A stretch of 57,774 nucleotides of DNA, filler included, from Candidatus Desantisbacteria bacterium CG1_02_49_89 (GTDB lineage Bacteria > Desantisbacteria > UBA1551): assembly GCA_001871075.1 (NCBI GenBank). It is 4 parts of 4 records of this genome, joined end to end, with 100 filler letters (N's around TTAATTAATTAA, not from the genome) between each part and the next. Parts side by side here need not be neighbours in the genome. Positions count along the whole stretch, not along the records: positions 1 to 15,843 come from MNUP01000009.1; positions 15,944 to 31,483 come from MNUP01000030.1; positions 31,584 to 45,898 come from MNUP01000073.1; positions 45,999 to 57,774 come from MNUP01000035.1. One strand, given 5' to 3'. Positions 356 through 53,827 of the stretch are shown here, in pieces; the first letter of the stretch is position 1, and each line of letters begins with the position of its first letter. A program made the translations under genes and the position numbers. The notes under the pieces are model-generated. The model was not told the origin of the DNA, ran no database searches, and saw only the letters and a program-made list of their open reading frames with translations.

Positions 356-428
356 TCGTAGAGCCATCTGCTCAGTTCTGGCTCGAAGACCCCTGTGTTA
401 AGTTCCAGTTTTATCGGAACTACAGGGG
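356..428 (+). repeat. Double-hairpin element family B, copy 1 (73 nt)
   Basis: TCGTA-GAGCCA/TGGCTC-GAAGA-CCCCTG-N5-AGTTCC/GGAACT-ACAGGGG. Confidence 0.85.
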
Positions 429-450
429 GAAGAATTTTGAGGTGACGAAG

Positions 451-472
451 TCCCAAAGGGATCCCTTCGGGA
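451..472 (+). repeat. Minimal double hairpin TCCCAAAGGGA-TCCCTTCGGGA (family C)
   Basis: A second copy lies at 4715-4736; this one splits the GAAG|CAATCC motif. Confidence 0.85.
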
Positions 473-484
473 CAATCCGATGAA

Positions 485-545
485 GTCGTTGCGAGCGATA
501 GCGAAGCAATCTCGTATTGGATTGCTTCACTTCGTTCGCAATGAC
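485..545. repeat. GTC(A/G)TTGCG...GAAGCAATC / GATTGC...CGCAATGAC palindromic element
   Basis: Related copies at 346-478 (interrupted), 3547-3659, 11280-11344 and 43685-43712 (half). Confidence 0.85.
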
Positions 546-595
546 ATATTGTGTGAAAATCCCGTTTTTCTCTGTGACCCCTGTGGTTAATTTTA

Positions 596-1657
596 TTAGC
601 AGGGAGTGAAATCCATCTTCTTATTGACTCGTAAAATGAACTCGCTGATCAGCTTCGTGATGTTATCCAGGTCGGTTGTGCTCACAAGTTCCACAGGCGA
701 GTGCATGTACCTGTTCGGTATGCTTATCAGCCCTGTCGCAACCCCCGACTTCGTGAGTTGTATTATGCGCGCATCCGTTCCGGTAGGGCCTGATATACCC
801 TCCACCTGGTATTTTATCTTCTTCTCCCTGGCAATCTTGACGAACAGGTCAAAGACCTTCGCGTTTATATTCGGGCCCCTTGCGATAACAGGCCCGCCGC
901 CGATCTTTATATCCCCTATTTTCTTCTTATCCGCGCCGGGCATGTCCATCGCGAAGGTTACGTCTATGGCAATGCCTATGTCAGGGCTTATTCCGTACGC
1001 GCTTGTCTGAGCTCCCCTTGTGCCAAGCTCCTCCTGCACGGTGGCAACCCCGTAAACAGCCGCCTGCGGCTTTTTCTTCGAAAGGACCCTGAGCACCTCG
1101 CTCACTATGAACGCGCCTATGCGGTCATCGAATCCCCTTGCTACTATTCTGTCCCCCCTTAGCTCCTCAAATCCGACTGCCGGGACCGCCGGGTCGCCGA
1201 CCTCTACAAGCGATTTGGCTTCTTTTTCGTTCTTCGCGCCTATGTCGATCCAGACATTGTCAGGGCTGATGATCTTATTGACTTCGTCCCCTTCCTGCAG
1301 ATGCCTGGGCTTTCTTCCGGTGACCCCGTGGATCTTCCCTTTCCTGGTCTTTATCAGCACCCTCTGGCCCGGTACAAGATGGTAGTCTATCCCGCCTATG
1401 GGAGAGAAATAGATAAAACCTTCCTTGTCTATGAACTTTACCATATACCCGATCTCGTCGATATGGCCGGCGAGCATTACCCTGGGGCTTCCGTTCTTGT
1501 TCAGGACCCCGGCAGTATTGCCGTGCACGTCCGTCTTCACTTCGTCGGCAAAAACCTTTGTCCGCTCCTTCCATATCCTGGCTGAATCTTCCTCGTACCC
1601 GGACGGGCTCATGCTGTCCATAAACCTTTTAAGAAACTCTTTCGGCTCCTTTTCCAT
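596..1657 (-). CDS. M42 family metallopeptidase (TET-like aminopeptidase)
   Basis: SPSGYE, AGHIDEIG, IDIGA, FDDRIG, QEELG, DVT and RYMHSPVE motifs. Start moved to MEKEPK after a GGAGG RBS. Confidence 0.93.
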   Translation of the reverse strand: MEKEPKEFLKRFMDSMSPSGYEEDSARIWKERTKVFADEVKTDVHGNTAGVLNKNGSPRVMLAGHIDEIGYMVKFIDKEGFIYFSPIGGIDYHLVPGQRVLIKTRKGKIHGVTGRKPRHLQEGDEVNKIISPDNVWIDIGAKNEKEAKSLVEVGDPAVPAVGFEELRGDRIVARGFDDRIGAFIVSEVLRVLSKKKPQAAVYGVATVQEELGTRGAQTSAYGISPDIGIAIDVTFAMDMPGADKKKIGDIKIGGGPVIARGPNINAKVFDLFVKIAREKKIKYQVEGISGPTGTDARIIQLTKSGVATGLISIPNRYMHSPVELVSTTDLDNITKLISEFILRVNKKMDFTPC

Positions 1658-1753
1658 TATTCCTCCTCGTTCATCGTGCATCGTCCGTCGTTCATCGCAG
1701 TTTCAATAAAAATAAATTCCTTGCAGTTACGCTGACACGTTGACGCGCTTTTG

Positions 1754-15404: not shown

Positions 15405-15653
15405 GCAAACCTCCTATTGCAACCACAGATGAACACCCTCTACAGGTTTCTGCGAAACCTAACCGTGAGGGCAGGCAGGTGAACACTGTTTTGACCACTG
15501 AATATGCCAAAAGAAGTTATTTTCACAGGGAATTGACGAGAACTTAAACTGAACTTATTACTTTTTCTGGGTTTAACCTAAGAATTTTAAGTTCTCTTAA
15601 GTTCCCTGTAAAAGTATTTCTGTGTTAACCTGTGTTTACCTGTGGTTATTTAG

Positions 15654-15943: not shown

Positions 15944-16176
15944 AGGAATGCCTGGTGGTTATCTATCGCCCAGATCTCGCCCTTTGAAAGCCTTGCCAGC
16001 TCAAGGGTCTGCATCCCCGGGCCGCACCCGACATCCAGGATCCTTGGCCTTTCAGGCAGATCTTTCAAAAAACCGTATGCCCTGCGCGTGGAAAGGTTGT
16101 TACCGGGACCTCCCCTGGGCAGTTTTTCGAATATTGAAAAGAAAACATCCCACTCTTTGCTTGTCCAGTCTTCCAT
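15944..16176 (-). CDS. Class I SAM-dependent methyltransferase, N-terminal part (truncated at gap)
   Basis: LPRGGPG...T.RA and ILDVGCGPG (motif I); AAGGAG RBS. Confidence 0.88.
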
Positions 16177-16310
16177 TTCTAACTCCTTAAAGAATAATCA
16201 CCCTCACCACAATCCTCCCCCGCATTAACACCCCCATCTCAATCTTCCCCCGTCTAAGGGGGAAGAAGACTTAGGAATAGATAAATTCTTAGGGGGAAGA
16301 AGATCAAGGT

Positions 16311-18899
16311 TTAAAATTTTATTTTAAAGGTTTTGATCTCGAAGGGGCGGAAACTGGCGGAGACCGTATTATCAATAACTTTAATAGGACTAAGGGAGTC
16401 TTCAAGAAGGTTGGCTTCTTCGGCGGAAACAACTTTCGCAAGGCTTCCGCCAGAGGCGGATCCGCCAATCTCTGTGGCGGAAAAGCCCTGCACTCCATTA
16501 AAAAATTTTATTTCAACGTTCTCCGCGGGCTGGCCTGCCGCTTCGTACGCGCGCAGGATCAAGCCGCCCTTCTCGTCCTGCTTCAGCGCTGAAACAACGA
16601 TATTAGGATGTGAGATCTCAAGCAAACCCCACCTTGCAGGCAGGTCTCCGGGATGGGATCCTGCCAGGCGGCAGATGAGCGGGTTGTTGAACTCAAGGCC
16701 TTCCCTGAAGATCCCGGCTTCCTGCCAGGTCCCCTTGTGCGGGACAAGCGCGTATTCAAATTCCAGCTCTTTTTCAAGCTCCAACCCTGTATCAGAAGAC
16801 ATCCCCTCTTCGTAGCCGCCGGCAAAAGCGTAGGATGTTATGCGGGTTGAGCGCATAAGCGAAAGCATCATTACGCTGTCCGCGACGTTGTTGCCAGGCA
16901 GGCCCTTGTTAAGAAGCGCGACCCCCCTGTCAGGACCCGAATGATCTATCCAGTTCTGCGCGGGGAATTCAATGCCGTCAGGGCGTTCTATCGCCCCGAA
17001 CGGGATCTCGTGGAAACTCCTGCTCTTTCCGACCGCAACCGGAAAAAGCGCGCGGTAACGGACGAACTGCGCCCTGTTCTTTATGCGCGTGCGGATCTCA
17101 ATCCTGCGCAGGTTCCTATAAAGGCGTATTTTCGTGGAAAAAGTGCCGCTGCCGAAAAGATGCGTTACTTCAAACTCGCTGTAAACGCTGCCCTTTACTG
17201 TTTTTTCAGGCCTTCCCTTGAACTGGTTACTGAAAACAGCGCCTATTCCAGGTTTCGGCGCCGGATGCCTGTCCTTCATGGCTATAGCCGATCCGCCGTC
17301 CAGCGACCTGTAGAGTTCCCAGAAATCCCCTTTGTCCTGCTCCTGGACAACCACGTTCGCGGAACCGCCCAGCACGCTCATTTTATCCGGCTTTATCTGG
17401 ATCTTCGTTATCGTCCCGGCTGCGGAATCTAGTTCAACGGAACAATACCTGCCCTCCATTGAATTCTCTTTTTCCATCCCCCGGGCCGGCTTGGTAACAG
17501 GGGATCTAAAGAACGTCTTAAGCCTGAACACCGAATAGCCGAAAGCGGGAATGTCTTCCGCGACAAAAGTAACCCTTGCCTTGCTGATCGTCTCGTTATC
17601 ATAGCGTTCAACGCCGGAAAGCTGGACCGCAACCTCCCGGTTGTCCGGGTCGAACAACTTAATATCCAGAACTTGCCTGCTGGTAAAAACCATCTCAATA
17701 CTTGACGAGTCCGCGCGCTTCCATCCCAGGGAATTGAAAACAACAATGGCCTGGCCTTCTCCGCCTTCTGTATTTATTCCAAGGACAAATTCTTCCAGCC
17801 TTTTCTCAAATTCCGCTGCTGCTGTTTCCCCGGAGAAGTTATATCCTTTTAGCGTATCCTCGTAAACCTTATCGGTCATAACGCCTGACATCAGATCGTG
17901 CGCCTGGTTAAAAAGCAAGGGCTCCCACGCCTGCCTGAGAGTATCATCTCTAACAGACATACCAGTGCATTTAAGCATTACTCCCAGTTTTTCGGCTGCG
18001 AGAAGCAGGTTCTCGGTCTCCCTTAACTTTTGCTTGAGCTCTATCCTCGAGCTATATGTGCCCTGGAATATCGGGTTGAGCTCACCCTTTATAATTGGCC
18101 TTTCGGGTTTTTGCGAAACCTCCTTTTCGTATTCAGAGGGAACCGCAAAGCTTATTTTGAAGGGCGGGGTATCGGGCTGGGCATTGAATTTCTCCGCAAG
18201 ATCAGGCAGGTGTTCCTCAGGCGGAGCTACGTCAACTCCCGCGAGGATCACCCTGCAGCTGCCTTTTGCCCTGGGCACGAGCGCGTCAAATTTTTTCTGA
18301 AAGAACTCGGTAAAGCTCTTCAGGAACTGCGGCGAGCCGTATCCGTCTCCGTAAGGAACCCAGAAGGCGGGTATCCTGGAGCCGTCAATCCCCTCCCACA
18401 GGAATTCCACGGGTGTGCCCGGGTCCGGAACGCCGCGGGAAAACCAGAACGATGTATATCCCGCAAGCTTTAAAAGCTGGGGCATCTGCGCGTGGTGGCC
18501 GAACGTGTCCAGCTGCCAGCCTGCTGTCACCTCAACGCCCAGTTCTCTGCGGAAAAATCCCTTCGCGTGAAGCACCTGGCGGACGAACGATTCGCCGCAG
18601 GGCATGTTGACGTCAAGCATCACGTGCGTGCCGCCGCAGATCTCAAGCCTGCCTTCGGATATGAATTTTTTAAGCTTGTCGCCTTCCGGAAAAGGATATT
18701 TTTTAAGGAAGGGCTCCACGTAGCAGGACTGGTCAAGCACGAACCTGTAATGAGGGTATTTTTCAAGTATCGCCAGCGCCTTGAGGATGTTAGGCAGCCC
18801 TATTTCAAGGTATTCTGCCCGCGTCTTAAACACAGCGCCTTCCCAGTGGGTGTGGGGAATAATAAATAATAATGTGGGCTTGATTTCCTTAGCTTTCAT
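16311..18899 (-). CDS. Alpha-mannosidase (GH38)
   Basis: IPHTHW, GESFVRQ, W.LDTFGH..Q.PQ, F.WEG.DGS, GTYSSR, NQAHD..SG, VFNSLGW.R and PFEIKT motifs. Confidence 0.93.
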   Translation of the reverse strand: MKAKEIKPTLLFIIPHTHWEGAVFKTRAEYLEIGLPNILKALAILEKYPHYRFVLDQSCYVEPFLKKYPFPEGDKLKKFISEGRLEICGGTHVMLDVNMPCGESFVRQVLHAKGFFRRELGVEVTAGWQLDTFGHHAQMPQLLKLAGYTSFWFSRGVPDPGTPVEFLWEGIDGSRIPAFWVPYGDGYGSPQFLKSFTEFFQKKFDALVPRAKGSCRVILAGVDVAPPEEHLPDLAEKFNAQPDTPPFKISFAVPSEYEKEVSQKPERPIIKGELNPIFQGTYSSRIELKQKLRETENLLLAAEKLGVMLKCTGMSVRDDTLRQAWEPLLFNQAHDLMSGVMTDKVYEDTLKGYNFSGETAAAEFEKRLEEFVLGINTEGGEGQAIVVFNSLGWKRADSSSIEMVFTSRQVLDIKLFDPDNREVAVQLSGVERYDNETISKARVTFVAEDIPAFGYSVFRLKTFFRSPVTKPARGMEKENSMEGRYCSVELDSAAGTITKIQIKPDKMSVLGGSANVVVQEQDKGDFWELYRSLDGGSAIAMKDRHPAPKPGIGAVFSNQFKGRPEKTVKGSVYSEFEVTHLFGSGTFSTKIRLYRNLRRIEIRTRIKNRAQFVRYRALFPVAVGKSRSFHEIPFGAIERPDGIEFPAQNWIDHSGPDRGVALLNKGLPGNNVADSVMMLSLMRSTRITSYAFAGGYEEGMSSDTGLELEKELEFEYALVPHKGTWQEAGIFREGLEFNNPLICRLAGSHPGDLPARWGLLEISHPNIVVSALKQDEKGGLILRAYEAAGQPAENVEIKFFNGVQGFSATEIGGSASGGSLAKVVSAEEANLLEDSLSPIKVIDNTVSASFRPFEIKTFKIKF
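16446..16481. repeat. Double hairpin TCCGCC..GGCGGA-TCCGCC..GGCGGA (36 nt) inside the mannosidase CDS
   Basis: Read directly; sits in the loop of a REP-like GCAGGGCTTT|AGCCTTGC hairpin. Confidence 0.85.
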
Positions 18900-19065
18900 A
18901 GTTTAGCCAGTTCTATTAAAAACAATTATGAATTATGAGTTATGAATTATGAATCATAAGCATAAGGAATTAATTTTAATAAATCAGCTTCTTTTCAATC
19001 TACAATCTGAAATCTACAATCTGCAATTTCACCCATGACCCATGACACATGACTCATGACTGCTG

Positions 19066-22000
19066 TTATTGTTCGGCAATAACAGTGAAACGGAGACGCT
19101 CACCGAAGGCGCAGCGACCGTCAGCGGACATTTCAAGTTCGACAACACGCGGGCTAAAGCCCGCGGCTACCGTCCCCTCACCTCTATCCTCTCCCGCCCG
19201 CCCAGCAAGATTGGCGGGCAAGCCAGGGGGAGAGGATAAAACAAAATCTGAAAGGACGGCGTCGGCAAGGTATGGAACGTCTGCCTTGATCTCAATCTTA
19301 ATTTTGATCTGAGAATTAGTGGTTGACACGAGGAACACCCCGCCCTTCGCGCCTTTCGCGTTCGAGGGAGCGATCCATCCTGCCTCGCCGTTATTCCCTA
19401 TGACAGCGGATGCCAGCACAGGTTCATTTGCTTTCACAGTATATCTCTTCCCGTTCTCAACTTCCTTCCACCCGTCAGCGGTCTTTATTTTAAACCGCAT
19501 AAACATCGCGTTCAGGTACTTGGGCGGGTTTGTTCCGTTGTATTCTACGTTGCCCACCGCGATAAGCGGGGTGTTCAGGGAATTCGTTCCCGTGCCTTGT
19601 GTCCTGAAGCCGCATACCTTACCGGACTTCATTGACGAGAAATATTCGTCCTTTATCTCCTCGTAGAACGCCTTGTAACCGCGGCAGTATTTATCCCTGT
19701 CAAATTCAAACCACTTGACAGGCTTTGGGATCTCCCTGGAAGCCGTGATCTTCGAAGAATTCTGCATTATGGCTTTTCCCGCGGGCCGCAGGTTCCTGTC
19801 AGGCGGCGCGATGCCGTAATCGCTTTTCTCGTCCACCCGGTAACCTCCCGGATACCACCATCCGAACCCGCCGTTCGCGCCGCTCTCGTACATCATCCGT
19901 AGTATATCCGTCCACAGGCCTCCCTGTTTTTCCATAAGCCCCTGGTCGTAGTCAAAAGTGCTGCCGGTCCATATCGACATCCCGAATTCCGCCCATATCA
20001 CGGGTAAAATCGGGGCGGCGTAACGGGCATACGTCACGGTAAACAGCCCGCCCTTCACCTTTTCCCAGTCACCGCCGTTCAGCCCGTATCCCTCAGGGCA
20101 AAGCATATCCACTGCCTTTGCAATGCCGCGGAAATCGTAGCTAAAAGAAGAAGACGGCACCCCCACGTCTCCTGCAACGTTCATCCTGAAACTCACAAGG
20201 TGGTTTGGGTCAATGTCCTTTATTTTCCTGTTTATGTCCCAGTATTTCCTGCACAGGAAATCGTCGACAAACCTCCTGTATGAGCAGATATACCGCAGAT
20301 GTTCGCCTTCGCTGTCCATCTCCTTGTCAGACGGGGCAGGCAGGCGCGAGCCCTGAGACACGGAGATACCCCAGTCCTTTTCCGCGTTCTCAACACCGCC
20401 GTATTTTTCAATGACCCAGTCCTTCCACTGCTTTTCAAACCCCTTCCTCCCTGCCTGGTTCCCGTAACCGCCGTTGTATGTCCCCCAGACCGGCTCCCAC
20501 GCAACGTCATACGCGAAAAGCACGTCGTTAAGGTCAAGCCTCGCGAACTTTATCACCTGATAACTTTCGCCGATATAGCAGTTCACGTGCATGCCGTATT
20601 TCCCGCACCTGCGCATGAAATCCAGCGCGTTCCTGATGCTGTTCCTGTCACCCGCTGAAATGCTCAGGGCAGTCACCCCCCATTCCTTCAACTGGCGCAG
20701 GTCCGGCTCAACCAGCTCAGGGTCATAGTTACCGTAGGTGAGCCAGTGAGACCAGTATTCATCCCTGCTCATCCCGGAAATATACAAAGGCCAGTAATTC
20801 ACGCCGAAAGGATACCATTTCTGGCCGCGCAGGTAGAAATCCCCGTCTTTCGCCGTAACGAATTCCTTCTTTGAATCAGGGGTCCATGGCAGGATCCCCA
20901 GCTCCTGGACAAGCACGTCAATGACCTTTCCGCTCTCAAGAAGTTCAGTTCGAATATCGTACGCTTCCGCGCTGAATCTGTCGACTTCCCACACTGTTTC
21001 CAGGGAATCTTTCTCCCCTGCCGGGATCTTCATTGCCTGTTCCTGTTTGAATACTGCCGTGGTTGACTTCTTCGGAAAGACAGAGATGCGCGCTGTCACA
21101 TTTTTTTCCTCTTGGCTGAAGTTCCCGATAAGCGCGCTGATCTTCACGGAAGTTTCATCCGTAAAAACACTGAATTCCTTTGAGCCCGCTTTCAGGATGT
21201 AGGCACCATCCCTTATACGGTCAATAACGCCTGTAAGCGCGGACATAAGTGCGGGATTTTTCAGGAATTCTTCCTTCGGGATGCTGAATGCGCCCCATAA
21301 AGACCTGTTGTATTTGCCTGAATGGCTGATATAAAGGTAGGCAAGCGTGCCGCGCGTCTCACCTGATTTGTCCTTCGCGTAGATGAGCGGGACCCACCTT
21401 GTTTTCATGCTCTGCTGAAATCCGACTCCCCGGGGCCTGTGAACGCAGGACCAGGATTGCTGGGGCGGATTGAATTTCAGGTCAGGCTTAATAAACGCCT
21501 GTTCCGGCTCAACCGCGTAACCGGTAATGTCTTTCAGCTGGTAATGCTTGTAAAGCGGGGTCATTGCCTCAAGCTCCATCTCAATCTCAGGCCCTGCTAA
21601 CTGGAATGGATTTTTCATGGCGCCTATCTCGTCTATCCAGAACGTGTGCGGGCCGGCTTCAACCGCGTTTGTCTGTCCGAACGCGAGCCCTATCATAAGC
21701 TGGGCAGCGTTCTCCGGCTTGAGCACGTCTCTGGCTCCGCCCCTTCCCTTACTGGGGTTGTCAGGCCAGTATTTGAAATCCTTAGGGGAAAGCATGAAAA
21801 ATTTCCATTTCGTCTCAAGATTAATTATAGCGAACCAGCGCGACTTATCCTCTTCTGTCCATTCGACCAGCAGCTGCTTTGTTTTTTCATCTCCTTTTGC
21901 CCAGAACGATATGATATTGCATCCGGGCGGGAACGGGTTATCGATCTGCTGAAAATAACAGTCCCATCCCTGCAGGTCTTCCACGTCAACCCTGGCGCTT

Positions 22001-23022
22001 TGCTTTGTGCCGCCGCACCCCGTCCCCTCGGCTTCTATGGCGCTCTGGCTGCCGTTCGAGGAGTGGACCCACCCGTCAACCCCGTCCTCAAAATTGAAAA
22101 GAACCGTCCTGTCAGGGGAAGAGGAAAGATATTCCTCAAGCTCGGGCCTTGTCATCCACTTCACCCCGCCTTTCGGGTCTGCCTGCTTCCACGCGGTATC
22201 CCTGAACGGCGGGCCTTCAAAACACAGCATGCTGCCGCCTGTTTTCAGGAACGACATCAGCGGCAACTGGGCGTTCGCGGGAAAAACTTTTGAATGCGGC
22301 AAAAGCAAAAGGAAAAAGTTATCGGTTGAAAGTATGGACTTGTCTGAAAGCTGTTCGCCGTCAAGGAAAGTTACTCCGAAACCTGAGCCGCGCAGCTCTT
22401 TCGCCATCGCATCCGGAAAACTCATGTCCGCATCCCTGAATTTTTCCTTAAGTATCGCGATACTTCCCTTCCTACCTTTTTCGACACTGATTAACACAGA
22501 TGGACTCTGATTTTCAGAAGATACAGATTTTTCAACCTGGGACCCAGCATCTTTTTTGACACTGATTTCCGCAGATTCAGATTTCTTGTCGGATGCCTGG
22601 GCAGCGGATGCCTTAACTATCGGTATCTGGTCAGTGAAAACAATAGGGGCAAGCGGGTTCTGCCAGTCTTCGCCCAGCCACACAGCCATAATAAGCGCCT
22701 CCTTCTCTGAGAGTTTCGGGGCAACGAATTTGAATTTCTTCTCGCCCTTGCCCGAAACCTTTTCCTTATAAGCCTTCAGCACGCCATGTTCAGGGTCTTT
22801 CATCTCGCAGTTAATGGAGGCGGAGCCTTCGGGGATCCCGAACTTCGCGGTCACCTCGAACTGCTTTCCTTCCTCTATCGTGTCAGGGGTCTTTGAGAAC
22901 TCGCAGACAGCGTCCTCTGCCCAGCAGACCGTGTAAGGTGTAACGTGTAACGTGTAAGGCAGGCAGAAACTAAAAACTAAAACCAAAACAGGCACAAAAA
23001 ACCACAGAAGAGTTCGCTTCAT
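19066..23022 (-). CDS. Large secreted clan-A glycoside hydrolase (GH5/GH42-like) with N-terminal Ig-like and CBM-like domains
   Basis: Signal peptide; galactose-binding-like domain (ISFWAKG...FWIDEI); F...G.K...GVNY, YDVAWEP (acid/base) and IWAEFG (nucleophile). Confidence 0.75.
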   Translation of the reverse strand: MKRTLLWFFVPVLVLVFSFCLPYTLHVTPYTVCWAEDAVCEFSKTPDTIEEGKQFEVTAKFGIPEGSASINCEMKDPEHGVLKAYKEKVSGKGEKKFKFVAPKLSEKEALIMAVWLGEDWQNPLAPIVFTDQIPIVKASAAQASDKKSESAEISVKKDAGSQVEKSVSSENQSPSVLISVEKGRKGSIAILKEKFRDADMSFPDAMAKELRGSGFGVTFLDGEQLSDKSILSTDNFFLLLLPHSKVFPANAQLPLMSFLKTGGSMLCFEGPPFRDTAWKQADPKGGVKWMTRPELEEYLSSSPDRTVLFNFEDGVDGWVHSSNGSQSAIEAEGTGCGGTKQSARVDVEDLQGWDCYFQQIDNPFPPGCNIISFWAKGDEKTKQLLVEWTEEDKSRWFAIINLETKWKFFMLSPKDFKYWPDNPSKGRGGARDVLKPENAAQLMIGLAFGQTNAVEAGPHTFWIDEIGAMKNPFQLAGPEIEMELEAMTPLYKHYQLKDITGYAVEPEQAFIKPDLKFNPPQQSWSCVHRPRGVGFQQSMKTRWVPLIYAKDKSGETRGTLAYLYISHSGKYNRSLWGAFSIPKEEFLKNPALMSALTGVIDRIRDGAYILKAGSKEFSVFTDETSVKISALIGNFSQEEKNVTARISVFPKKSTTAVFKQEQAMKIPAGEKDSLETVWEVDRFSAEAYDIRTELLESGKVIDVLVQELGILPWTPDSKKEFVTAKDGDFYLRGQKWYPFGVNYWPLYISGMSRDEYWSHWLTYGNYDPELVEPDLRQLKEWGVTALSISAGDRNSIRNALDFMRRCGKYGMHVNCYIGESYQVIKFARLDLNDVLFAYDVAWEPVWGTYNGGYGNQAGRKGFEKQWKDWVIEKYGGVENAEKDWGISVSQGSRLPAPSDKEMDSEGEHLRYICSYRRFVDDFLCRKYWDINRKIKDIDPNHLVSFRMNVAGDVGVPSSSFSYDFRGIAKAVDMLCPEGYGLNGGDWEKVKGGLFTVTYARYAAPILPVIWAEFGMSIWTGSTFDYDQGLMEKQGGLWTDILRMMYESGANGGFGWWYPGGYRVDEKSDYGIAPPDRNLRPAGKAIMQNSSKITASREIPKPVKWFEFDRDKYCRGYKAFYEEIKDEYFSSMKSGKVCGFRTQGTGTNSLNTPLIAVGNVEYNGTNPPKYLNAMFMRFKIKTADGWKEVENGKRYTVKANEPVLASAVIGNNGEAGWIAPSNAKGAKGGVFLVSTTNSQIKIKIEIKADVPYLADAVLSDFVLSSPPGLPANLAGRAGEDRGEGTVAAGFSPRVVELEMSADGRCAFGERLRFTVIAEQ

Positions 23023-23073
23023 TGAAGCTCCTTTAAAAATTAGCCACGGACTGTAACGATTTTACAACGATTT

Positions 23074-23146
23074 CCGGAGAGTCATTAACCCGGTTCTGAC
23101 TCGTAGGTCCCTGTGTTAAGTTCCAGTTTCACCGGAACTACAGGGA
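23074..23146 (+). repeat. Double-hairpin element family B, copy 2 (73 nt)
   Basis: CCGGA-GAGTCA/TGACTC-GTAGG-TCCCTG-N5-AGTTCC/GGAACT-ACAGGGA. Confidence 0.88.
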
Positions 23147-23181
23147 TAACGATGTTACAACGATTCTCAACGATTCTCAAC

Positions 23182-23337
23182 CTATCGTTTTATATACATC
23201 GGGCGTTTCGCCATCTTGCGGATCGAGTCCCTTTGCATTTCCCGCCGCATCTGTTCGCGCAGCTTCCTCATATCAACAAGCTGCTTCTGTTTCACCGGAT
23301 CCTTTGCCGCAGGTGCCTTGTCTTTTGACTCTTCCAT
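23182..23337 (-). CDS. Small basic hypothetical protein (51 aa)
   Basis: MEESKDK...RPMYIKR with a purine-rich RBS (AAGGGAAAGGA); no recognised motif. Confidence 0.55.
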   Translation of the reverse strand: MEESKDKAPAAKDPVKQKQLVDMRKLREQMRREMQRDSIRKMAKRPMYIKR

Positions 23338-23450
23338 TTTTTTGTCCTTTCCCTTTTTTATGGATAATAAATATAGCAAGCCTCCCTCCTTAAAAACTGG
23401 CGGGTCTGCGAAAAGGCTTGCCCTACGAAATCCTAAGGTGAGGGTGTTCA

Positions 23451-23473
23451 AGGGCGGGCAAGCCCGCCCCTAC
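23451..23473 (-). repeat. GTAG-type REP element
   Basis: Minus strand GTAGGGGCGGGCTTGCCCGCCCT; similar REP-like hairpins near 19147-19170, 23410-23426, 27751-27773, 32828-32850 and 32933-32982. Confidence 0.75.
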
Positions 23474-23553
23474 GCGTATTCGCAAGCTAAAAACATAAAA
23501 TTATCATAATCCGTGATAATCCGTGTGAATCCGTGGTTAAAATTCAGTGGTTT

Positions 23554-26500
23554 TTATTGAATAGTTACTGCTTCGCCTTCAAGCAGGTCGAGGATGAGGA
23601 GGTCGCCGTCTTTTTTGGAGCCGGCATTCCTGCCGGTAATTTTGGAGCCGGATTTGAGAGTTGAAAGGAATTTTGAAGGGGATATTTTTACCTGAAGGTC
23701 GCATGTGGACATAATTTTAAGTTTTCCGCTGCCCCAGTCCAGCATAACGTTGGCGGGTTTTCCGCCCTTGAACTGGAGGCCATCCGACTTGTATTCAGTG
23801 TTGCCGATAAAGAGGGCTTTGTCTCCCTTGAAAACATAACCTGTGCCGATCATGTTCTGCGCCTGCGCGGTTTCCATTGTCCCTGTTGGGCCTGCCCTGT
23901 TGATATATTCTGAAAGGAACTGGGTCGCGTGCGCGATCGGTTTCCTGTGCCCGAAAGGAGTGCCGTCATAGTAGAAGAACCCGAACCTTTCCTCGTAGAA
24001 ATTGTCGTCCCCGCGCCAGGCATTGGGATTGTCGTTCAGCATCCACTTGTAACTTCCTTCATACCCCCTGCTAAGCGGGTAAAGGTAATGGATCATTTCA
24101 CCCACGGCTGAAGAGTAGAAATCCAGGTATCTTGAACCCATCATAATGCCGTTCGAATACCCGAACTCACCGAAGCTGACAGGTTTTTCAGGCCATACAG
24201 CCGCTATACGGTCAAACGTAGTTATGTTCTGAATGACCGAATCGTATGAGAAAGGCCTTACGTAAACATGGTGCGAGATAAAATCCAGCTCAGAAGCGCA
24301 CGGGAACGCGGAGAACGGAGTATTGAACCCGACTGTGACCAGGTGGTTCTTGTCAACCTCCCTTATCGCATCCTTGTTAAGCTTAATCCAGATACGGAAG
24401 CTCTCGTCACCCGCTTTCACGACTTCATCGTCCAGCATCGGGACTTTGTTATCCTTCAGCTTGGGGAAGGTGGTCCACTCGCCCAGGTTCTCGCCTACGT
24501 ATATACCGAACTTATTGACTCCGTCCTGAATGTCCGTAATAGGAAGTTTTATACCCGCCGGATATTTTTCGGCAATAATAGCGGGAAGCCACGGCTCGTT
24601 CTGGATGTCGTAACCGAGCACCATTGGTTCGTCCTTAAGGTGGGCGCATAGCTTCCTGATGCACTCCTGCGATTTTTCCATCTGCCCGTAGCGTGCAAGG
24701 TGCACGAGCAGGTGTATGTCATAGCGCCTCGCGAATGTAAGCATAATATCGATCTTGTGGAAATCGTCCTTCATAATGTCGTCAGCAAGCTTATAAAGGA
24801 AGAGCCTGAAGGTATTTATCCCTGCCTCGTGCGCCTTCCTGAAATCCAGCTCCATCTTGACCGGGTCAAAATATTCCTTCCACTCGTTCCAGCACCTGTC
24901 AAACCAGCCGTGGTAGTTCGAGCCGATGCAGAAGAACCTTTTTCCGTCAGGATAAACCAGGTGTTTTTTGTCAGCGCTTACTTTCATGAAACCTTGTTGC
25001 ACTGGCGGCATCGGCGCGACATCAAACATATGTTCGGCGATATCGGATACACCCTTGCCGCTCTCTCTCAATACCACCCTCAGCATATAGCTTCCCGCGT
25101 CCATAGGGGTAACCCAGCCGCATTCAACTGCCTGGTTCTTTCCGGGCTCAAGCCCGATTTCAAATGCTTTACTGAATACAGTTTTGCCGTCCTTCACAAC
25201 GCTTATCTCAGCATTCGCCTGTTTTGCCGCAGATCCAAGGTTGCATACCCGTGCAGAAAACAAGGCTTCTTTACCCGGTTCGTAAGTAAGCCGGCCCGGA
25301 CTTATGCTTCCCAAAAACAAACCATTTTTCATCGCTCCGATTATTTTTGAAAGCGCGGGAATGAAGGACGGGTCCTTGTAAAACCCGGGATCCTTTATCC
25401 CGAAACAGGCAATGACCGAGTTTTTCATAGCCTTGCTGTAATTTACAAGCATAGACGCGATAGCGCCCTTGTATCTGCCATATTTATCATAGGCGTTGAT
25501 AAGCGGCACGTACCTGCCGCCTGTCTGGTTCGGATACGCAATGGCAAAATCCCCGCCTGTTACGCCCGCAAGGTTAAGCCCGGATTCAAGCAGCGCCTGC
25601 GCGGAATTTATTTCCGCCTTCGCGACATCATTAATAACATAGGCGCTGTAGGCGTCGTTGAAAACAGGGACCTTCATCCTCGCGGTAAGGTCCATTTTCG
25701 GGTAGGGATTCTTCGCAATGCCCACCTCGTCTATCCAGATCTCGTGCTGGCCGCCCTCCACCGAAGTGTGAGAATACGCAAGCCCGATGCTGATAATGGA
25801 CGCGTTCTCGAGTTTCACCGCGTCGCCCTTGCCGCCCCTTCCCTTGCTGGTATTATCCTTCCAGTACGCGAAGGCCTCGGGCAGGAGGCAGTAGTGTTTC
25901 CATTCGGTTCCCATGTTAACCGTGGCGATCCAGCGCGAACCGTCCCGCTCCCCGATCTCCACGGCGATCTGTTTTGTCCTCTGAGACCCTTTTGCCCAAA
26001 AGCAGACAAGGTCCTGGCCTTCGGATATGGAGCCGTCTATGCCGGCGCTCCAGTTGTCCCACCCGGTAAGTCCGGGTATGAATATTTTAGCTCCTTTGCC
26101 CTTGTATCCCTTGTCGGCCTCCAGGCTTCCCGGGGTTGAAACGTCGTTAGTTGCCCTGCGCCACCCCGAAGGCTCGTCCTCAAAATCAAAAAGCATGTTC
26201 TGGGGCTGGACCGATGAGATCGTTTCCTCTATCTGGGACTTTGTCATCCACTTGCCGTTAAAATTCCAGACAAGCTCTTTGAACGCGTACCCTCCAAGCG
26301 TCACGAGGTCGCCGCCCCTGGTCAAAAACCTCAGCAGGGAAGCGGAAGCGGAAGCCGGAAAATAATCCGCACCTCCGGCAATTACCAGGCAGTCAAAATT
26401 CTCTATATTAAGTATGGAGCTATTCCGTATTTTCTCGCTGTCAAGCACTGTCACGCCGAAACCGGATCCGCGCAGGCCCGTAACAACAGCGTCCGCAATG

Positions 26501-30497: not shown

Positions 30498-31019
30498 CTA
30501 TTTCGGTTTTTTGGTGCCGAGGAATGTGAACTTCACGGCGTCAGCGATACCGTTGCCGTTCCCGCCTGAGTTCGTGCTGACATACGCCTTATCGCCTTTC
30601 TTGCATTTGAACACGCCCAGGGAATTCCATTTCCCGAAATCTTTTTTAAGGTCAATTACGAATACCTTGGTTTCCTTGTCATTCACAGCCACTATGAAGA
30701 GAGCATTGGTCGCATGGTCATTGTTGGGATCCCCGCAGTACCAGATAGAAACATCATAATAGCCTTCCTTCGGAAGGTTCGGCCTCCACCACGCTATGTC
30801 AGAACCCTTAGGGTTCACCATTGCCCACAGGGAGTCTGTGCCGAAGCCCTGCCCGCCCTGGCCCTCATCGGTCATCCACTGCCCTTTCGTCACAAATCCT
30901 TCTTTGCTGGAATTGTCTATGATAAACTCCGTCACTTCCTTTGCCTTCTCCGCCGCCATTACCGCGATGGAACCGGCAAACAAACAAACCAGCAAACCAA
31001 CCAACAATACTTTTTTCAT
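30498..31019 (-). CDS. Secreted beta-sandwich protein (golvesin C-terminal/CBM-like)
   Basis: Signal peptide; IIDN, W.P.LP..G.YDV..WY, G.W.SLG.F and ADAVKF motifs. Confidence 0.75.
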   Translation of the reverse strand: MKKVLLVGLLVCLFAGSIAVMAAEKAKEVTEFIIDNSSKEGFVTKGQWMTDEGQGGQGFGTDSLWAMVNPKGSDIAWWRPNLPKEGYYDVSIWYCGDPNNDHATNALFIVAVNDKETKVFVIDLKKDFGKWNSLGVFKCKKGDKAYVSTNSGGNGNGIADAVKFTFLGTKKPK

Positions 31020-31062
31020 TGAGCCACCCCCATTAATATATTTTGAATATTTCTTATAGTGT

Positions 31063-31090
31063 ATTATATATATATTTTAAATAATGTCAA
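31063..31090 (-). promoter_or_regulatory. Sigma70-type promoter TTGACA-N16-TATAAT
   Basis: Perfect -35 (31085-31090) and -10 (31063-31068) hexamers about 45 nt upstream of the 31019 start. Confidence 0.8.
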
Positions 31091-31106
31091 GGAAAAAACC
31101 ACACTC

Positions 31107-31441
31107 TGTTCCGCAACATTCAAAAGCGGACATTTGGGAACCTTAAAACCGAACATTAATTAAAGATGGAACTCTCCAATTTTCTGCTCATCCTTTAAAA
31201 CAATAATCTTTCTGTTGGGGATAAGACCCACGGTTACTTCCTGTTCTGGAAATCGTCCTACTTTCCAGGTTCTGCCTTCGAGAGTACCCCCCCCCTCACC
31301 CTACCCCTCTCCCTCGAGGGGAGAGGATAAAGGAGAGGGTGATTATTACCTGATTTTTAAACCAGCCAGCCTAAATAATTTTCCCCCGGCTATGTGACAC
31401 TTTGATTGTTCCCAATGTGACCTTTTGATTATTTCCGCACA
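31107..31441. mobile_element. Internally deleted IS1202/IS481-like element (MITE-like remnant), followed by the start of a second copy at 31459
   Basis: TGT...ACA termini, each with two imperfect internal AAA(N)...ACAT sub-repeats; flanking direct repeat GGAAAAAACCACACT (31091-31105 and 31442-31456); a 41-codon minus-strand ORF tail at 31160-31285. Confidence 0.65.
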
Positions 31442-32438: not shown

Positions 32439-32771
32439 GTGTTTGTTCCATAAATCCCGCTATTCTCCCTGACCGAAGCAGTATCCCAATTAGCATATAT
32501 CAGGATCTTCGGACAGCAATAGCCTAATTCTTCTATTCTTTTACTCAAAAACAAAAATCCCCCGGGCGTTTACAATATTAGCCCTGTTTGGCGCTCCTTT
32601 CTTTAAAACAGTTAAAAGTTAAAGGTTGAAAGTTACCCCTCTACTCCGATGTATCGGAGTCCCAGGGGGATCTTCGAAAAGTTGTAGGATTGGAGGAAGA
32701 GTAATCGGCAGAGATTTTAAGGATTAGGAAAATAAGTAAATAGGGAAGTTAAAGAAGTTGGGTATATATGT

Positions 32772-37006: not shown

Positions 37007-38305
37007 TTAATACTGGCGGTATTTTATTGTGAGGTAGTCCCAATTTGTGTCTGTACTGTTCCTGGTATACCCTGTCACATACACATTGCCTGAGGAATCA
37101 ACTGCGATACCTCTGCCACCATCATCAGTTACCCCATTCCATACCTTCTGCCAGACAGTATTTCCATTTGTGTCATATTTTATTGTCAGGTAGTCCGAGT
37201 TTGTGCCGTTAGAGGAATACCCTGTTACATAGACATTGCCAGAGGAATCAACTGCGATGCCATAGCCATAATCAGCACCTATGCCATTATATGCCTTCTG
37301 CCATACAGTTTCCCCATCTGCGTTGTATTTTATTGTCAGGTAGTCATAGGTTGTACCGTTATAGAACTGCCCTGTCACATACACATTTCTTGAGGAATCC
37401 ACTGCGATGCCTCTGCCCCAATCATCATTTCCCCCATCCCACGCCTTCTGCCATACAGTTTCCCCATCTGCGTTGTATTTTATTGTGAGGTAGTCCTTGT
37501 TTGAGTTGCCAGTGGAATACCCTGCCACATATACATTGCCTGAGGAATCAACTGCAATACCATAGGCATCATCATCTTTTCCTAATCCCCTATCCCACGC
37601 CTTCTGCCAAACAATATTCCTTGCTGAATCGTATTTTATTGTCAGGTAATCCCAGTTTGTGTCTGTGCTGTTTCTGGTATACCCTGTCACATAGACATTG
37701 CCCGAGGAATCCACTGCGATGCCTCTGCCACCATCATCAGCTACCCCATCCCACGCCTCCTGCCAGACAAAACTCCCTGCTGAATCGTATTTTCTTGTCA
37801 GGCAGTCGTTCCCCGGGACTGCGCCGTTATAGGACCACCCTGTTACATATACGTTGCCCGTGTCGTCAACTGCAACGTCATAACCCCAATCATCACCACC
37901 AAACCCATTCCACGCTTCCTGCCACACAGTATCCCCGGTTGAGTTGTATTTTATTGTGAGGTAGTCCTTGTTTGAGTTGCCAATGGAATACCCTGTTACA
38001 TAGACATTTCCTGAGGAGTCAACTGCAATGCCATAGGCATCATCATCATTTCCTAATCCCCTATCCTACGCCTTCTGCCAGACAGTTTCTGCGTTTGTGT
38101 ATTGCACTGGTCCAGGCGTTGTTTCGCCACCTGTTCCTGTATCCGGAACTTTTGGGATTTTCCCCTCATCCTGGCCCTTCTTTATTACCTGCTCTGCTCC
38201 GCCTGATGAACCGAAGCCCACAAAGAAAGCATAAGAAGAAACAGTAACCAGTATTAAGTAGAAAGCAACTAACAGAAACACTAAAACCATAACTGACTTT
38301 TTCAT
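37007..38305 (-). pseudogene. Exported SBBP-type seven-bladed beta-propeller protein interrupted by one in-frame TAG at 38066-38068
   Basis: Seven IAVDSSGNVYVTG-type repeats in a single frame. WQKA*DRGLG at the stop matches WQKAWDRGLG in repeat 4, implying TGG>TAG. Confidence 0.85.
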
Positions 38306-41564: not shown

Positions 41565-41592
41565 ATTATAACAAATTTATCCTGTTTGTCAA
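41565..41592 (-). promoter_or_regulatory. Sigma70-type promoter TTGACA-N16-TATAAT with extended -10 TG
   Basis: Minus strand CTTGACAAACAGGATAAATTTGTTATAAT, about 44 nt upstream of the 41521 start. Confidence 0.8.
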
Positions 41593-41688
41593 GCCCCGAC
41601 AGCTTTTGTCGGGGCGCAGACCCCCCTGTTTTATGCCGAAGGCATAGGAGGGGTCAAGCCCCAATGACTTTTGTCGGAGCGCCGGGGG

Positions 41689-49308: not shown

Positions 49309-49374
49309 CCGTAGCCCGCCACGAATATTGGCGGGCGGAGGCCCCTGTATTGAGCTGCATAGCAGCTACAGGGG
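49309..49374 (+). repeat. Double-hairpin element family B, copy 4 (66 nt)
   Basis: CCGTA-GCCCGCCA/TGGCGGGC-GGAGG-CCCCTG-N5-AGCTGC/GCAGCT-ACAGGGG. Confidence 0.85.
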
Positions 49375-52148: not shown

Positions 52149-52264
52149 TTTGATTATGATTACAGTGATTCTAAAAGAGATTACAGTGATTATTTTTAAA
52201 TTGCCATACTCAGCTTTTAAATAATCACCGTAATCATTAGTTGAAATCACCGTAATCGGTATTA

Positions 52265-52450
52265 TTAAGCCTTGGGCATCTTGCCGGAACGCAGGCACTT
52301 GGTGCACAGCATAACAGTTTTCACCCTGCCCTTTATCTTGACCTTGGTTTTGTGCAGGTTCGGCTGGAAGGTGCGTTTAAACCCCTGGTGCGAGTGGCTG
52401 ATCTGAAATCCCTGCTGGTGTACCTTGCCGCACAGTTCGCATTTTGCCAT
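52265..52450 (-). CDS. rpmB: 50S ribosomal protein L28
   Basis: MAKCELCGK....G..ISHSH....R.F.PNL...CTKCLRSG. Confidence 0.95.
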   Translation of the reverse strand: MAKCELCGKVHQQGFQISHSHQGFKRTFQPNLHKTKVKIKGRVKTVMLCTKCLRSGKMPKA

Positions 52451-52540
52451 AATTCCTCCGGAATTCGTCATACGTCATACGTCGTAGGTCGTACGTTTAA
52501 ACATTTAAAACGTATGACGTAAGACGTTCGACGCTCGACG

Positions 52541-53341
52541 TTATTTAGCCCGTGCCATTTTTTCGAACTTCCTTGTGGCTTTAGCCACAAAATTGTAATA
52601 CTGCTTCCTTTTCAAAAGGGACGCCGCTTCCTCGTCCAGGAACACGTTGACCCTGCGGTGCAGCTGCAGGACGGAAGCGGTAACCTGCGCCGTTACCCCG
52701 CCCTCTATGGTTATGGAGATGACGTTCGCCTTGCTCTTCCCGTTCGCGAGCAGTATTATTTCCTTCGCCTCCATAACGGTGCCCACGCCCATTGTTATGG
52801 AATAAGTGGGCACTTCGCTCTGGTCTTTGAAGAAACGGGAGTTGTCCTGTATGGTTTCCTCTGTGAGCGTTTTTACCCTTGTGCGGGAGCCCAGCGATGA
52901 GCCCGGTTCGTTGAACCCTATGTGCCCGTCCCTTCCTATGCCCAGCACCTGCAGGTCGATGCCGCCGAATTTCTTTATGCGGCTCTCGTACCAGTCGCAG
53001 TATTCATCTATGTCGCACGGCTTCGCCATGCCGTTGGGCACGTGGACGTTCTTTATATTGATGTCCAGGTGCTTGAAAAGGTTCTCGCGCATGAAACGGA
53101 AATAGCTCTGTTCGTGGTCCTGCGCGATCCCCAGGTATTCGTCCAGGTTGAACGTAACCACGTGTTTGAAGCTCAGCCCTTCATCCTTGTGCAACCTTAT
53201 GAGTTCTTTGTAAAGCCCCAGCGGCGTGCTGCCGGTCGCAAGGCCCATCACAAGGTTCGGTTTTTTAAGCAGCCTGTCCTTTACCTCAAGCGCGGCTTCC
53301 CTGCTCATTTCTTCGTAATTCTTCAGTATGAATACCTGCAT
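52541..53341 (-). CDS. nagB: Glucosamine-6-phosphate deaminase
   Basis: GLATGSTP, TFNLDEY, GGIDLQ.LGIG.DGHIGFNEPGSS and ITMG motifs. Confidence 0.96.
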   Translation of the reverse strand: MQVFILKNYEEMSREAALEVKDRLLKKPNLVMGLATGSTPLGLYKELIRLHKDEGLSFKHVVTFNLDEYLGIAQDHEQSYFRFMRENLFKHLDINIKNVHVPNGMAKPCDIDEYCDWYESRIKKFGGIDLQVLGIGRDGHIGFNEPGSSLGSRTRVKTLTEETIQDNSRFFKDQSEVPTYSITMGVGTVMEAKEIILLANGKSKANVISITIEGGVTAQVTASVLQLHRRVNVFLDEEAASLLKRKQYYNFVAKATRKFEKMARAK

Positions 53342-53463
53342 GTCAACCCCCAATCCAATTATGAATTATGAATGATGAATTATGAGTCAAAAACAAGGAT
53401 TTTTTTATTTAAATTTAACTCCATGCAGTTGATTCATAACTCATAATTCATAACTCATAACTA

Positions 53464-53703
53464 TTATTTAAGAAGATTTTGAATAAAGTCGATTGCCTTG
53501 CCGACGGTCTTGACGTCAAGCGCGGCTTCCTCGTCCATGGTTATGTCGAACTCCTGCTCGAACGCCGCCACGAGCTCAAGGCTCTGTATGGATTCCGCCC
53601 CGAGGTCCTTTACGAAGTCAGACTCGTTTTTGATCTTTTCGGGCTGGACTTTCAGCTGTTTTGACACCACCTTCTTCACCCTTTCCTCAACGCTTCCTTC
53701 CAT
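53464..53703 (-). CDS. acpP: Acyl carrier protein
   Basis: 79 aa; F.KDLGAESIQSLELV...E.EFDI..E.A....TVG. The Ser sits in an atypical ES.Q context. Confidence 0.88.
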   Translation of the reverse strand: MEGSVEERVKKVVSKQLKVQPEKIKNESDFVKDLGAESIQSLELVAAFEQEFDITMDEEAALDVKTVGKAIDFIQNLLK

Positions 53704-53774
53704 TTTTCCTCCACTTGGGATTACGGTGATTATAACTGAGATTACGGTGATTATCTAAATTTAAATAATCGCTG

Positions 53775-53827
53775 TCCCTAAAGGACCCCTGCGTCTTGTC
53801 CCGATTCTTATATCGGGACTGCAGGGG
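53775..53827 (+). repeat. Hybrid double hairpin (family-C-like first half plus family-B second half, 53 nt)
   Basis: TCCCTAAAGGA-CCCCTG-CGTCTT-GTCCCGAT/ATCGGGAC-TGCAGGGG; removing it restores AATCGCTG|TAATC. Confidence 0.8.

What the first reader, a model, noticed from the sequence alone, without database searches (positions are those of the whole stretch)
356..53827. Family B double-hairpin element with compensatory covariation in both stems
Seen: copies at 356-428, 23074-23146, 27518-27592 (minus) and 49309-49374. Stem 1 is GAGCCA/TGGCTC, GAGTCA/TGACTC, GGGTCA/TGACCC or GCCCGCCA/TGGCGGGC. Stem 2 is AGTTCC/GGAACT (twice), AGCTCC/GGAGCT or AGCTGC/GCAGCT, closed by CCCTG...AGGG with a constant 5-nt asymmetric linker. 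Each copy interrupts a different host repeat (GTCATTGCGA|G, AACGATT, CACGGAG and AATTCG(T/C)G arrays). Degenerate relatives lie near 15437-15476 and 32636-32678. Inference: structure rather than sequence is under selection, as expected for an ssDNA/RNA substrate or a small structured RNA.
Basis: partly seen in the sequence, partly recalled or inferred. Interest (0 to 1): 0.82.

Follow-up and report, generated by a model that had tools for sequence, protein, structure and literature searches.

The report
Mobile double-hairpin DNA micro-element family
A roughly 70-base, two-hairpin repeat has spread to over a hundred sites in an uncultured groundwater bacterium, and its loops are the kind that are stable in single-stranded DNA rather than RNA, so it is most likely a tiny mobile DNA whose copying enzyme is still unknown.

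Summary
The four copies are real and exactly placed. They belong to a family of about 110 copies genome-wide (116 by nhmmer; 107 by covariance model). Covariation holds up: the 11 top-scoring column pairs are all predicted base pairs, 5 above a tree-based null. The bulge is 4 nt, not 5.

The evidence favours single-stranded DNA over RNA. Hairpin 2 triloops are c-GNA-g in 30 of 36 cases, hairpin 1 keeps a GNA/GNA internal loop, both orientations occur, and Rfam has no match.

It moves without target duplication: into its own loop, other repeats, and one gene in frame. Junctions are heterogeneous, though, and subfamilies track their host repeats. No candidate enzyme gene lies within 1 kb of a copy. 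It fails the GTAG-REP tests (tag in 54 of 106, no CT sites).

Hairpin 2 is the core of a wider family: 43 more copies carry other first hairpins, and a short form occurs in a second family of the same order. The scan found this family before elsewhere in this genome (e1-7228851). Verdict: new variant of REP/SDR-like micro-elements; mechanism inferred.

The parts
356..428 (+). Full copy, 73 nt (hairpin 1 at 356-389, hairpin 2 at 390-428), inside a GTCATTGCGA...GCAATC (SRM/CGTC-type) repeat
   Evidence: 92.6 bits
23074..23146 (+). Full copy, 73 nt, inside an AACGATT-type tandem array
   Evidence: 90.8 bits
27518..27592 (-). Full copy, 75 nt, inside a CTCCGTG-type array, same strand as the flanking genes
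   Evidence: 85.2 bits
49309..49374 (+). Full copy, 66 nt, with the alternative CCGCCA-type hairpin-1 body and a triloop hairpin 2, inside an AATTCGTG-type array
   Evidence: 50.0 bits
53775..53827 (+). Sister type: same hairpin 2 behind a short TCCC-NAA-GGA first hairpin, inside an ATCAC(T/G)GTAATC array; one of 20 such copies in the genome
   Evidence: (27.0 bits, E 1.8e-4)
41589..41653 (+).
   Evidence: (30.3 bits, E 3.3e-5)
32636..32677 (-). Probable short form (mini TC-GAA-GA hairpin plus degenerate hairpin 2); weak
   Evidence: z -2.7; 9.4 bits, E 2.1
15436..15471 (-). Possible hairpin-2-only remnant with a c-GCA-g triloop; assigned by eye only
   Evidence: z -1.7; not found

Best explanation
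A non-autonomous mobile micro-element that works as folded single-stranded DNA. SHOWN: about 110 diverged copies of two abutting hairpins. Hairpin 1 has a 2-bp base, a GNA/GNA internal loop, a 6-bp stem and a 12-nt loop. Hairpin 2 has a 7-bp stem, a 4-nt T-rich bulge, a 6-bp stem and a c-GNA-g triloop, or a second small hairpin in place of the loop. The unit has arrived at many unrelated sites without target duplication. Hairpin 2 is the shared core of a wider family with interchangeable first hairpins. INFERRED: one strand folds when exposed during replication, repair or DNA uptake; sheared G-A pairs and the bulge are the identity elements read by a host-encoded ssDNA-cutting enzyme acting in trans (most likely a HUH Y1/RAYT-type tyrosine transposase, otherwise a GIY-YIG Ssn-type nuclease); the unit is joined or copied into a nick, often at a loop or bulge of another hairpin or in a repeat array, sometimes with loss of the host loop. 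A few dozen primary insertions were then multiplied as passengers of the host repeats and by swapping of whole spacers between strains.
For: Copy number and divergence: 116 hits, 107; 81 distinct sequences among 82 parsed. Covariation. DNA signature: c-GNA-g in 29 of 35 parsed triloops and in 30 of 36 by a search blind to loop letters, with none of the complementary c-TNC-g; all four N occur, on at least five different inner stems. PMC13037366 (passages read) reports GCGNAGC as an extraordinarily stable DNA mini-hairpin with a sheared G-A pair, and much lower stability for an RNA counterpart. In the internal loop A is invariant in 84 of 84 and G in 82 of 84 on both sides, while N varies freely. 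Stems hold 1143 Watson-Crick, 21 G-T, 9 A-C and 3 other cells. Mobility: 6 copies nested in the hairpin-1 loop of another copy restore the 12-nt loop when removed; 62 distinct junctions and 40 distinct left 6-mers among 82 copies; a 75-nt in-frame insert in an AlbA/RecG-like gene that 29 of 29 parsed homologues lack; 9 distinct metagenome loci map by both flanks to sites where this genome has no copy. Wider family.
Against: No enzyme was found: none of 36 candidate genes lies within 1 kb of a copy, and 65 small neighbouring ORFs include no transposase, GIY-YIG or reverse transcriptase. No clean empty allele was seen: the orthologous spacers differ wholesale and no read-contig joint removes a copy exactly (best-supported rows only). 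The exact-junction test alone was not significant (10 of 73 against a shuffle mean of 4.8, maximum 11). Junctions differ in kind (exact, 1 nt off, loop lost, extra tail), which a fixed-end transposase would not give. Subfamilies track host repeats (45 of 68 nearest neighbours share a host class, shuffle mean 9.5), so many copies may be passengers. The GNA strand lies antisense to flanking genes more often than sense (48 vs 28), which is not the strand expected to be exposed. Folding energies do not separate the strands.
Confidence: 0.6

Rival explanations
1. Passive passenger. A handful of old insertions were multiplied only by recombination of the host arrays and spacers, and the stems were kept perfect by replication template switching rather than by selection.
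For: Subfamily-host association, 45 of 68. A same-species allele differs by a whole swapped spacer, including the last codons of the flanking gene. Very low G-T content in stems. The CCGCCA-type hairpin occurs with its loop in both orientations. Template switching can create compensatory changes (PMC8794818, passages).
Against: At least nine host classes plus 14 other sites, self-nesting at several positions and an in-gene insertion need many separate arrivals. Of 79 hairpin-1-like matches, none has the GNA/GNA mismatch perfected and none of the 71 with GNA/GNA has an inverted loop; no hairpin-2 triloop is inverted (0 of 36).
Confidence: 0.2
2. An ordinary GTAG-tagged REP (or head-to-tail REP dimer) cut and moved by a canonical TnpA-REP/RAYT at CT dinucleotides.
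For: GTAG is the commonest 5' tag and recurs before hairpin 2; the genome has 10 Y1 genes, some flanked by their own hairpin arrays; REPs insert without duplication and in frame into genes (PMC6006769, passages); a stem bulge is required in E. coli REPs (PMC8266576, passages).
Against: GTAG is in only 54 of 106 copies, whereas it is above 90% in most REP families (PMC3733652, part 2 read) and tolerates no change for the E. coli enzyme. The tag is part of a closed internal loop, not a free foot. CT or AG lies at 14 of 82 emptied junctions against 34% background. No Y1 gene is flanked by this repeat. One group-3 enzyme is more tolerant of tag changes, so a divergent RAYT is not excluded.
Confidence: 0.12
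3. A small structured RNA or cis-acting RNA element (stabiliser, terminator, ribozyme) under RNA-level selection, or one that moves through RNA.
For: It folds well as RNA (z -2.4 to -5.4). G-T exceeds A-C on the top strand. Tandem G-A loops also occur in RNA (own knowledge). A few copies sit just upstream of a ribosome-binding site (4 of 106; 3 of 4 in G001).
Against: No Rfam family (best E 1.2, none at a copy). Both orientations, with the motif strand mostly antisense. No U-tracts. Triloops rather than GNRA/UNCG tetraloops (only 2 of 82 loops are 4 nt). The single reverse-transcriptase match lies 17.8 kb from the nearest copy.
Confidence: 0.08

Closest known systems
GTAG-tagged REPs/BIMEs/REPINs with TnpA-REP (RAYT) (PMC3733652: parts 1-2 of 8 read; PMC8266576, PMC6006769, PMC3116915: passages read)
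   Same: Small intergenic hairpins at high copy, a GTAG-like motif 5' of a stem, a bulged stem, insertion into other palindromes and in frame into genes, no target duplication.
   Different: The tag is GNAG inside a closed GNA/GNA loop; two abutting dissimilar hairpins in one orientation; no CT sites; no flanked RAYT gene; 66-77 nt rather than 20-40.
Small dispersed repeats (SDR) of Nostoc (Elhai et al. 2008, PMC2527708; not held here; seen only as citations in PMC3116915 and PMC2884548, the rest recalled)
   Same: From recall: tiny structured repeats with compensatory changes, nested in themselves and in short tandem arrays, enzyme unknown.
   Different: From recall SDRs are 21-27 nt and cyanobacterial; this is three times longer with a two-hairpin modular build. 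No sequence comparison was possible.
Double-hairpin elements (DHEs) of fungal mitochondria (Paquin et al. 2000, seen through passages of PMC10085805)
   Same: Two adjacent GC-rich hairpins, potentially mobile, mostly intergenic, mechanism unknown.
   Different: Mitochondrial and few copies; no homology tested; probably convergent architecture.
NTS/SRM repeats with Ssn GIY-YIG ssDNA nucleases (PMC11893778: results part 1 of 4 read)
   Same: Strand-specific hairpin repeats that act as ssDNA, not RNA; SRM-type repeats are among the hosts here, and an Ssn-like gene flanked by them is in the genome.
   Different: The element lacks the CGTC/TGTC tag and does not flank any GIY-YIG gene; it is a guest of SRMs, not one of them.
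Class 3 TnpA-Y1 repeats (PMC6006769, passages)
   Same: Atypical high-copy hairpins with a variable-position foot (CnGA) beside a HUH Y1 enzyme.
   Different: The foot differs (CGNAG here); no Y1 gene beside any copy; their sequences were not compared (supplement not read).

Membership tests
GTAG REP | Conserved unpaired GTAG foot 5' of the stem | tested here: not met
   GTAG 54, GAAG 20, GGAG 17, GCAG 11, other 4 of 106; its last G pairs and the motif is closed by a 2-bp stem
GTAG REP | Cognate tnpA-REP gene flanked by the repeat | tested here: not met
   10 Y1 matches, nearest copy 2.1 kb away; genome 93.5% complete in 150 contigs, so a missing gene is possible
GTAG REP | Cleavage/insertion at CT | tested here: not met
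   CT or AG within the 4 junction bases in 14 of 82, background 34%
GTAG REP | High-copy intergenic palindrome, no target duplication | tested here: met
GTAG REP | Bound and cut as ssDNA by TnpA-REP | not testable with these tools
   needs biochemistry
CGTC REP / SRM (Ssn substrate) | CGTC/TGTC tag before an ATT-starting stem; flanks an Ssn gene | tested here: not met
   No such tag in the element; no copy within 2 kb of 8 GIY-YIG matches
MITE | Terminal inverted repeats and target-site duplication | tested here: not met
   The ends do not pair with each other; no junction supports a 3- or 4-nt duplication (0 of 73); nested copies restore the host loop exactly
IS200/IS605 non-autonomous derivative (PATE) | Fixed tetra/pentanucleotide target 5' of the insertion; ends shared with an IS in the genome | tested here: not met
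   40 distinct left 6-mers in 82 copies; the IS200-like gene on C83 has different flanking hairpins
Rfam RNA family | Match to a curated covariance model | tested here: not met
Intrinsic terminator | Hairpin followed by a U-tract, one orientation | tested here: not met
Cyanobacterial SDR | 21-27 nt unit with a shared SDR structure (recalled) | not tested
   paper not held; length differs
Mitochondrial DHE | Two adjacent GC-rich hairpins, dispersed, potentially mobile | tested here: inconclusive
   Architecture met; homology not tested; different compartment

The most novel reading that the evidence does not exclude
Hairpin 2 defines an old, lineage-wide superfamily of modular micro-elements whose identity is written in DNA-specific non-canonical structure (sheared G-A mini-hairpins, GNA/GNA loops, a T-rich bulge). 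They spread not by a fixed-end transposase but by an undescribed nick-and-copy pathway that patches a donor hairpin into unpaired positions of other ssDNA hairpins, swapping loops and modules as it goes. The in-gene case, where the host's own TCCGAA supplies the element's first bases, would be a footprint of such priming or of structure-guided target choice.
Probability: 0.2. Interest if true: 0.75.

Novelty: new variant of a known kind. Interest (0 to 1): 0.47.

Why it matters
How REP-like and smaller repeats spread is an open question (PMC8266576 calls the dissemination mechanism unresolved; passage read). This family supplies what is usually missing: many diverged copies with defined structure, nested insertions into a conserved host whose original sequence is known, a coding-sequence insertion with known ancestral residues, and interchangeable modules. 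It is also a natural comparative-genomics case of a fold that looks selected as DNA rather than RNA, a caution for RNA-motif searches that read covariation as RNA function. The interest is capped because such micro-repeats are a known class, the enzyme is unidentified, the host is uncultured, and the scan has already reported the family.

Tried and rejected
Own error: model R1 had hairpin 2 out of register by one column, found. Searches used it and are not relied on; one search's hairpin-2 counts are void. The model was rebuilt as R2 and repeated on the own genome (100), 39 other genomes (101), the window (102) and 49 loci (103). The 140-genome search was not repeated at that size; a pattern search of 400 genomes (111) stands in.

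Distant homologues: a loose hairpin-1 pattern gave 18 single hits in GTDB genomes; 6 of 18 pair at the three free positions against 1.6 by shuffle. All lack hairpin 2, several appear to lie in ORFs, and each of 5 genomes re-searched holds only that one match. Not accepted as members; the excess pairing is unexplained. Viral pattern hits scored at most 20.7 bits.

Enzyme hunt: Y1_Tnp, GIY-YIG, four-helix-bundle, GxxExxY, DUF559 and RVT_1 searches; none adjacent. The Y2_Tnp search found nothing, but its controls were blank too.

Expression: no RNA holder was listed. Contigs of four DNA runs laid on 16000-31400 showed no exact excision among the listed joints; contigs break at the copies.

Target unpairedness: mean 0.60 at emptied junctions against 0.46 in flanks, driven by the hairpin-loop hosts where it is built in; not used as evidence. 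A CT cut site and a host-derived CCGNA target for all copies were considered and rejected. One search (MurG against viral contigs, for taxonomy) found nothing. One sub-search returned 0 through an over-strict filter and was replaced.

Literature: searches returned no paper holding the required term sets; others gave the papers cited; no listed title or abstract describes this family. Subscription journals and supplements were not searched.
Full report
Observation. The window is four contigs (C103-C106) of a 2.48-Mb, 93.5% complete genome joined by N spacers. Runs that hold it are groundwater and aquifer metagenomes; the label Desantisbacteria comes only from earlier scan notes and was not tested. 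Flanking genes are ordinary metabolic and envelope genes. Rfam has no match at any copy.

Family size. An iterated nhmmer profile finds 116 hits at E<1e-3 and none in the reversed genome. The corrected covariance model finds 107 among 150 scored candidates. A structural parser resolved hairpin 1 in 106 of the 116 and both hairpins in 82; it demands pairing, so pairing percentages from it are inflated. Lengths cluster at 67 and 72-73 nt, and 81 of the 82 sequences are distinct.

Anatomy. Hairpin 1 reads YC, GNA, a 6-bp stem, a 12-nt loop, the stem, GNA, GR. Hairpin 2 follows with no spacer: a 7-bp stem, a 4-nt T-rich bulge, a 6-bp stem and a loop. In the longer copies the hairpin-2 loop is occupied by another small hairpin of the CCGAT...ATCGG or CCGCCA...TGGCGG kind, and in some copies the latter replaces the body of hairpin 1, as at 49309.

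Covariation. On 16 aligned copies, 99.1% of cells pair and 11 of 21 pairs change on both sides; 0 of 500 shuffles reach this, and slid registers give at most 45%. On 56 distinct full-length main-type copies, the 11 highest APC-corrected G scores are all predicted pairs. Five exceed the 95th percentile of the maximum in 60 tree-based simulations and three exceed every simulation; parsimony puts double changes on up to 5-6 separate branches per pair. This is my own approximation of R-scape. A possible 3-bp helix inside the 12-nt loop shows wobble but no covariation.

DNA or RNA. Triloops are c-GNA-g in 29 of 35 parsed copies and 30 of 36 in a search blind to loop letters; the complementary c-TNC-g never occurs. 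GCGNAGC is the known extra-stable DNA mini-hairpin with a sheared G-A pair, and the RNA counterpart measured is far less stable (PMC13037366, passages). The internal loop keeps G and A on both sides while N takes any value and does not covary; that this forms sheared pairs with stacked middle bases in DNA is my own knowledge, not tested. Both motifs are on the same strand. Template switching could explain perfect stems (PMC8794818, passages), but it would tend to repair the internal loop or invert loops, and neither is seen. The motif strand is antisense to co-directional flanking genes in 48 spacers and sense in 28, with 17 at contig edges. T-rich tails are rare. No RNA run was available.

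Mobility. Six copies sit in the hairpin-1 loop of another copy and restore the 12-nt loop when removed; two other loop insertions do not restore it cleanly. Removing a copy from tandem-array hosts mostly gives a gap-free or 1-nt-off match to uninterrupted arrays elsewhere (55 of 81 junctions had a spanning hit, output partly cut). The strict 7+7-mer test was not significant on its own. In 12 hairpin hosts the element stands where paralogous hosts have a 4-7 nt loop. Insertions at the hairpin-2 bulge go with loss of part of the inner stem. One copy plus an 8-nt tail lies in frame in an AlbA/RecG-like gene: 38 residues between two motifs against 13 in 29 of 29 homologues that the motif search could parse, out of 119 listed. 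There the host codons overlap the element's first bases. No target duplication of 3-4 nt was found.

Co-spread. Nearest neighbours share a host class in 45 of 68 cases (shuffle mean 9.5, maximum 21), so many copies travelled with their hosts. A metagenome scan gave 104 loci: 71 are the same sites in the same species, 11 are duplicates, 12 do not map by both flanks, 1 is a shared site at 92%, and 9 map to spacers where this genome has no copy (one of the 9, L056, maps through repeats and is doubtful). In the seven cross-species alignments inspected the whole repeat content of the spacer differs (output partly cut). One case is within the species: the flanks are near-identical but the spacer and the last codons of the flanking gene are swapped. 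Turnover is therefore fast, but no clean empty allele was seen.

Enzyme. The genome has 10 Y1, 8 GIY-YIG, 10 four-helix-bundle, 5 GxxExxY, 2 DUF559 and 1 reverse-transcriptase loci. Several have their own flanking repeats; the nearest to any copy is 1.1 kb away. Sixty-five small neighbouring ORFs are housekeeping, toxin-antitoxin or unknown. GTAG and CT tests for a canonical RAYT fail.

Wider family. A search for hairpin 2 outside the known copies returned 51 matches. By eye, 6 are halves of interrupted copies, 2 look like chance and 43 carry other 5' modules: 20 with a short TCCC-NAA-GGA hairpin (one at 53775), several with only a 7-nt YC-GNA-GA mini-hairpin, and others with tandem-GA or longer leaders. 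G001, the only other genome of the phylum held (same order, another family, 87% complete), has 4 matches to mini-hairpin plus hairpin-2 start and none for the reversed control; 3 have a full hairpin 2, one with the same inner stem as a G000 subfamily. So hairpin 2 behind a GNA-bearing first hairpin is the old core, and Family B is an elaboration in which CGNAG appears twice around an inner stem-loop (inference). Outside the lineage nothing convincing was found: 0 of 60 genomes, 0 in a GTDB scan, 0 of 38 by model R2, and 3 matches in 399 unrelated genomes against 6 for the reversed control.

Verdict. A real, structured, mobile micro-element that most likely acts as single-stranded DNA (confidence 0.6); passenger plus template switching 0.2, canonical REP 0.12, RNA 0.08. 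It works like a REP, SDR or DHE but meets the membership tests of none that could be tested. An earlier report of this scan (e1-7228851) described the same family on other contigs; the DNA-loop evidence, the junction heterogeneity, the hairpin-2 superfamily and the G001 copies were worked out here. Interest 0.47.

Noticed in passing
window 450-471: A 22-nt double hairpin (TCCC-NAA-GGGA TCCC-TTN-GGGA, 'family A') interrupts the same SRM-type host just downstream of the 356 copy; 108 such matches on both strands of the genome. It shares YCC...GGR ends with hairpin 2.
   Followed up: partly
G001 loci L245, L247, L248 at ~1500; G000 C135:37936, C135:45089, C71:16678, C14:5058: Copies abut a Shine-Dalgarno-like GGAG(G) on the opposite strand: 3 of 4 in G001 and 4 of 106 in G000.
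   Followed up: partly
G000 C100:7198, C100:1570, C135:22593, C135:37936, C13:2875, C14:4777, C72:3945: Seven copies carry a 3' CAA(A)ATA-like tail, several followed by a fragment of a second copy; possibly a dimer donor.
   Followed up: partly
whole genome: Extreme gene co-orientation: 938 co-directional against 28 divergent or convergent gaps of 100 nt or more, by a rough gene caller.
   Followed up: no
L039 ~1100-1450 against G000 C36:250-450: Same-species allele swap of an SRM-flanked spacer that also changes the last codons of the flanking gene.
   Followed up: partly
G000 C74:10911, C81:15516, C81:19821, C122:3058, C142:772: Small GIY-YIG genes next to tRNA genes or tRNA-like fragments, several carrying CCGCCA or CCGAT hairpins; candidate movers of the smallest hairpins.
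   Followed up: no
G000 C23:1824-4176, C111:7597: RAYT-like genes flanked by their own tandem hairpin arrays, unrelated to this family; four other Y1 genes have terminal inverted repeats.
   Followed up: no
window 37007-38250: 150-159 nt coding repeats (SBBP/delta-60 beta-propeller type) running across two reading frames.
   Followed up: no
L172-L189 at ~1500: Six of 18 distant hairpin-1 pattern hits pair fully, more than shuffles give (1.6); single copies without hairpin 2. Unexplained.
   Followed up: yes
neighbours of copies on C114, C135, C149, C82, C50, C19: Several copies lie beside toxin-antitoxin cassettes (nucleotidyltransferase/HEPN, PIN, MazE, CopG); enrichment not tested.
   Followed up: no
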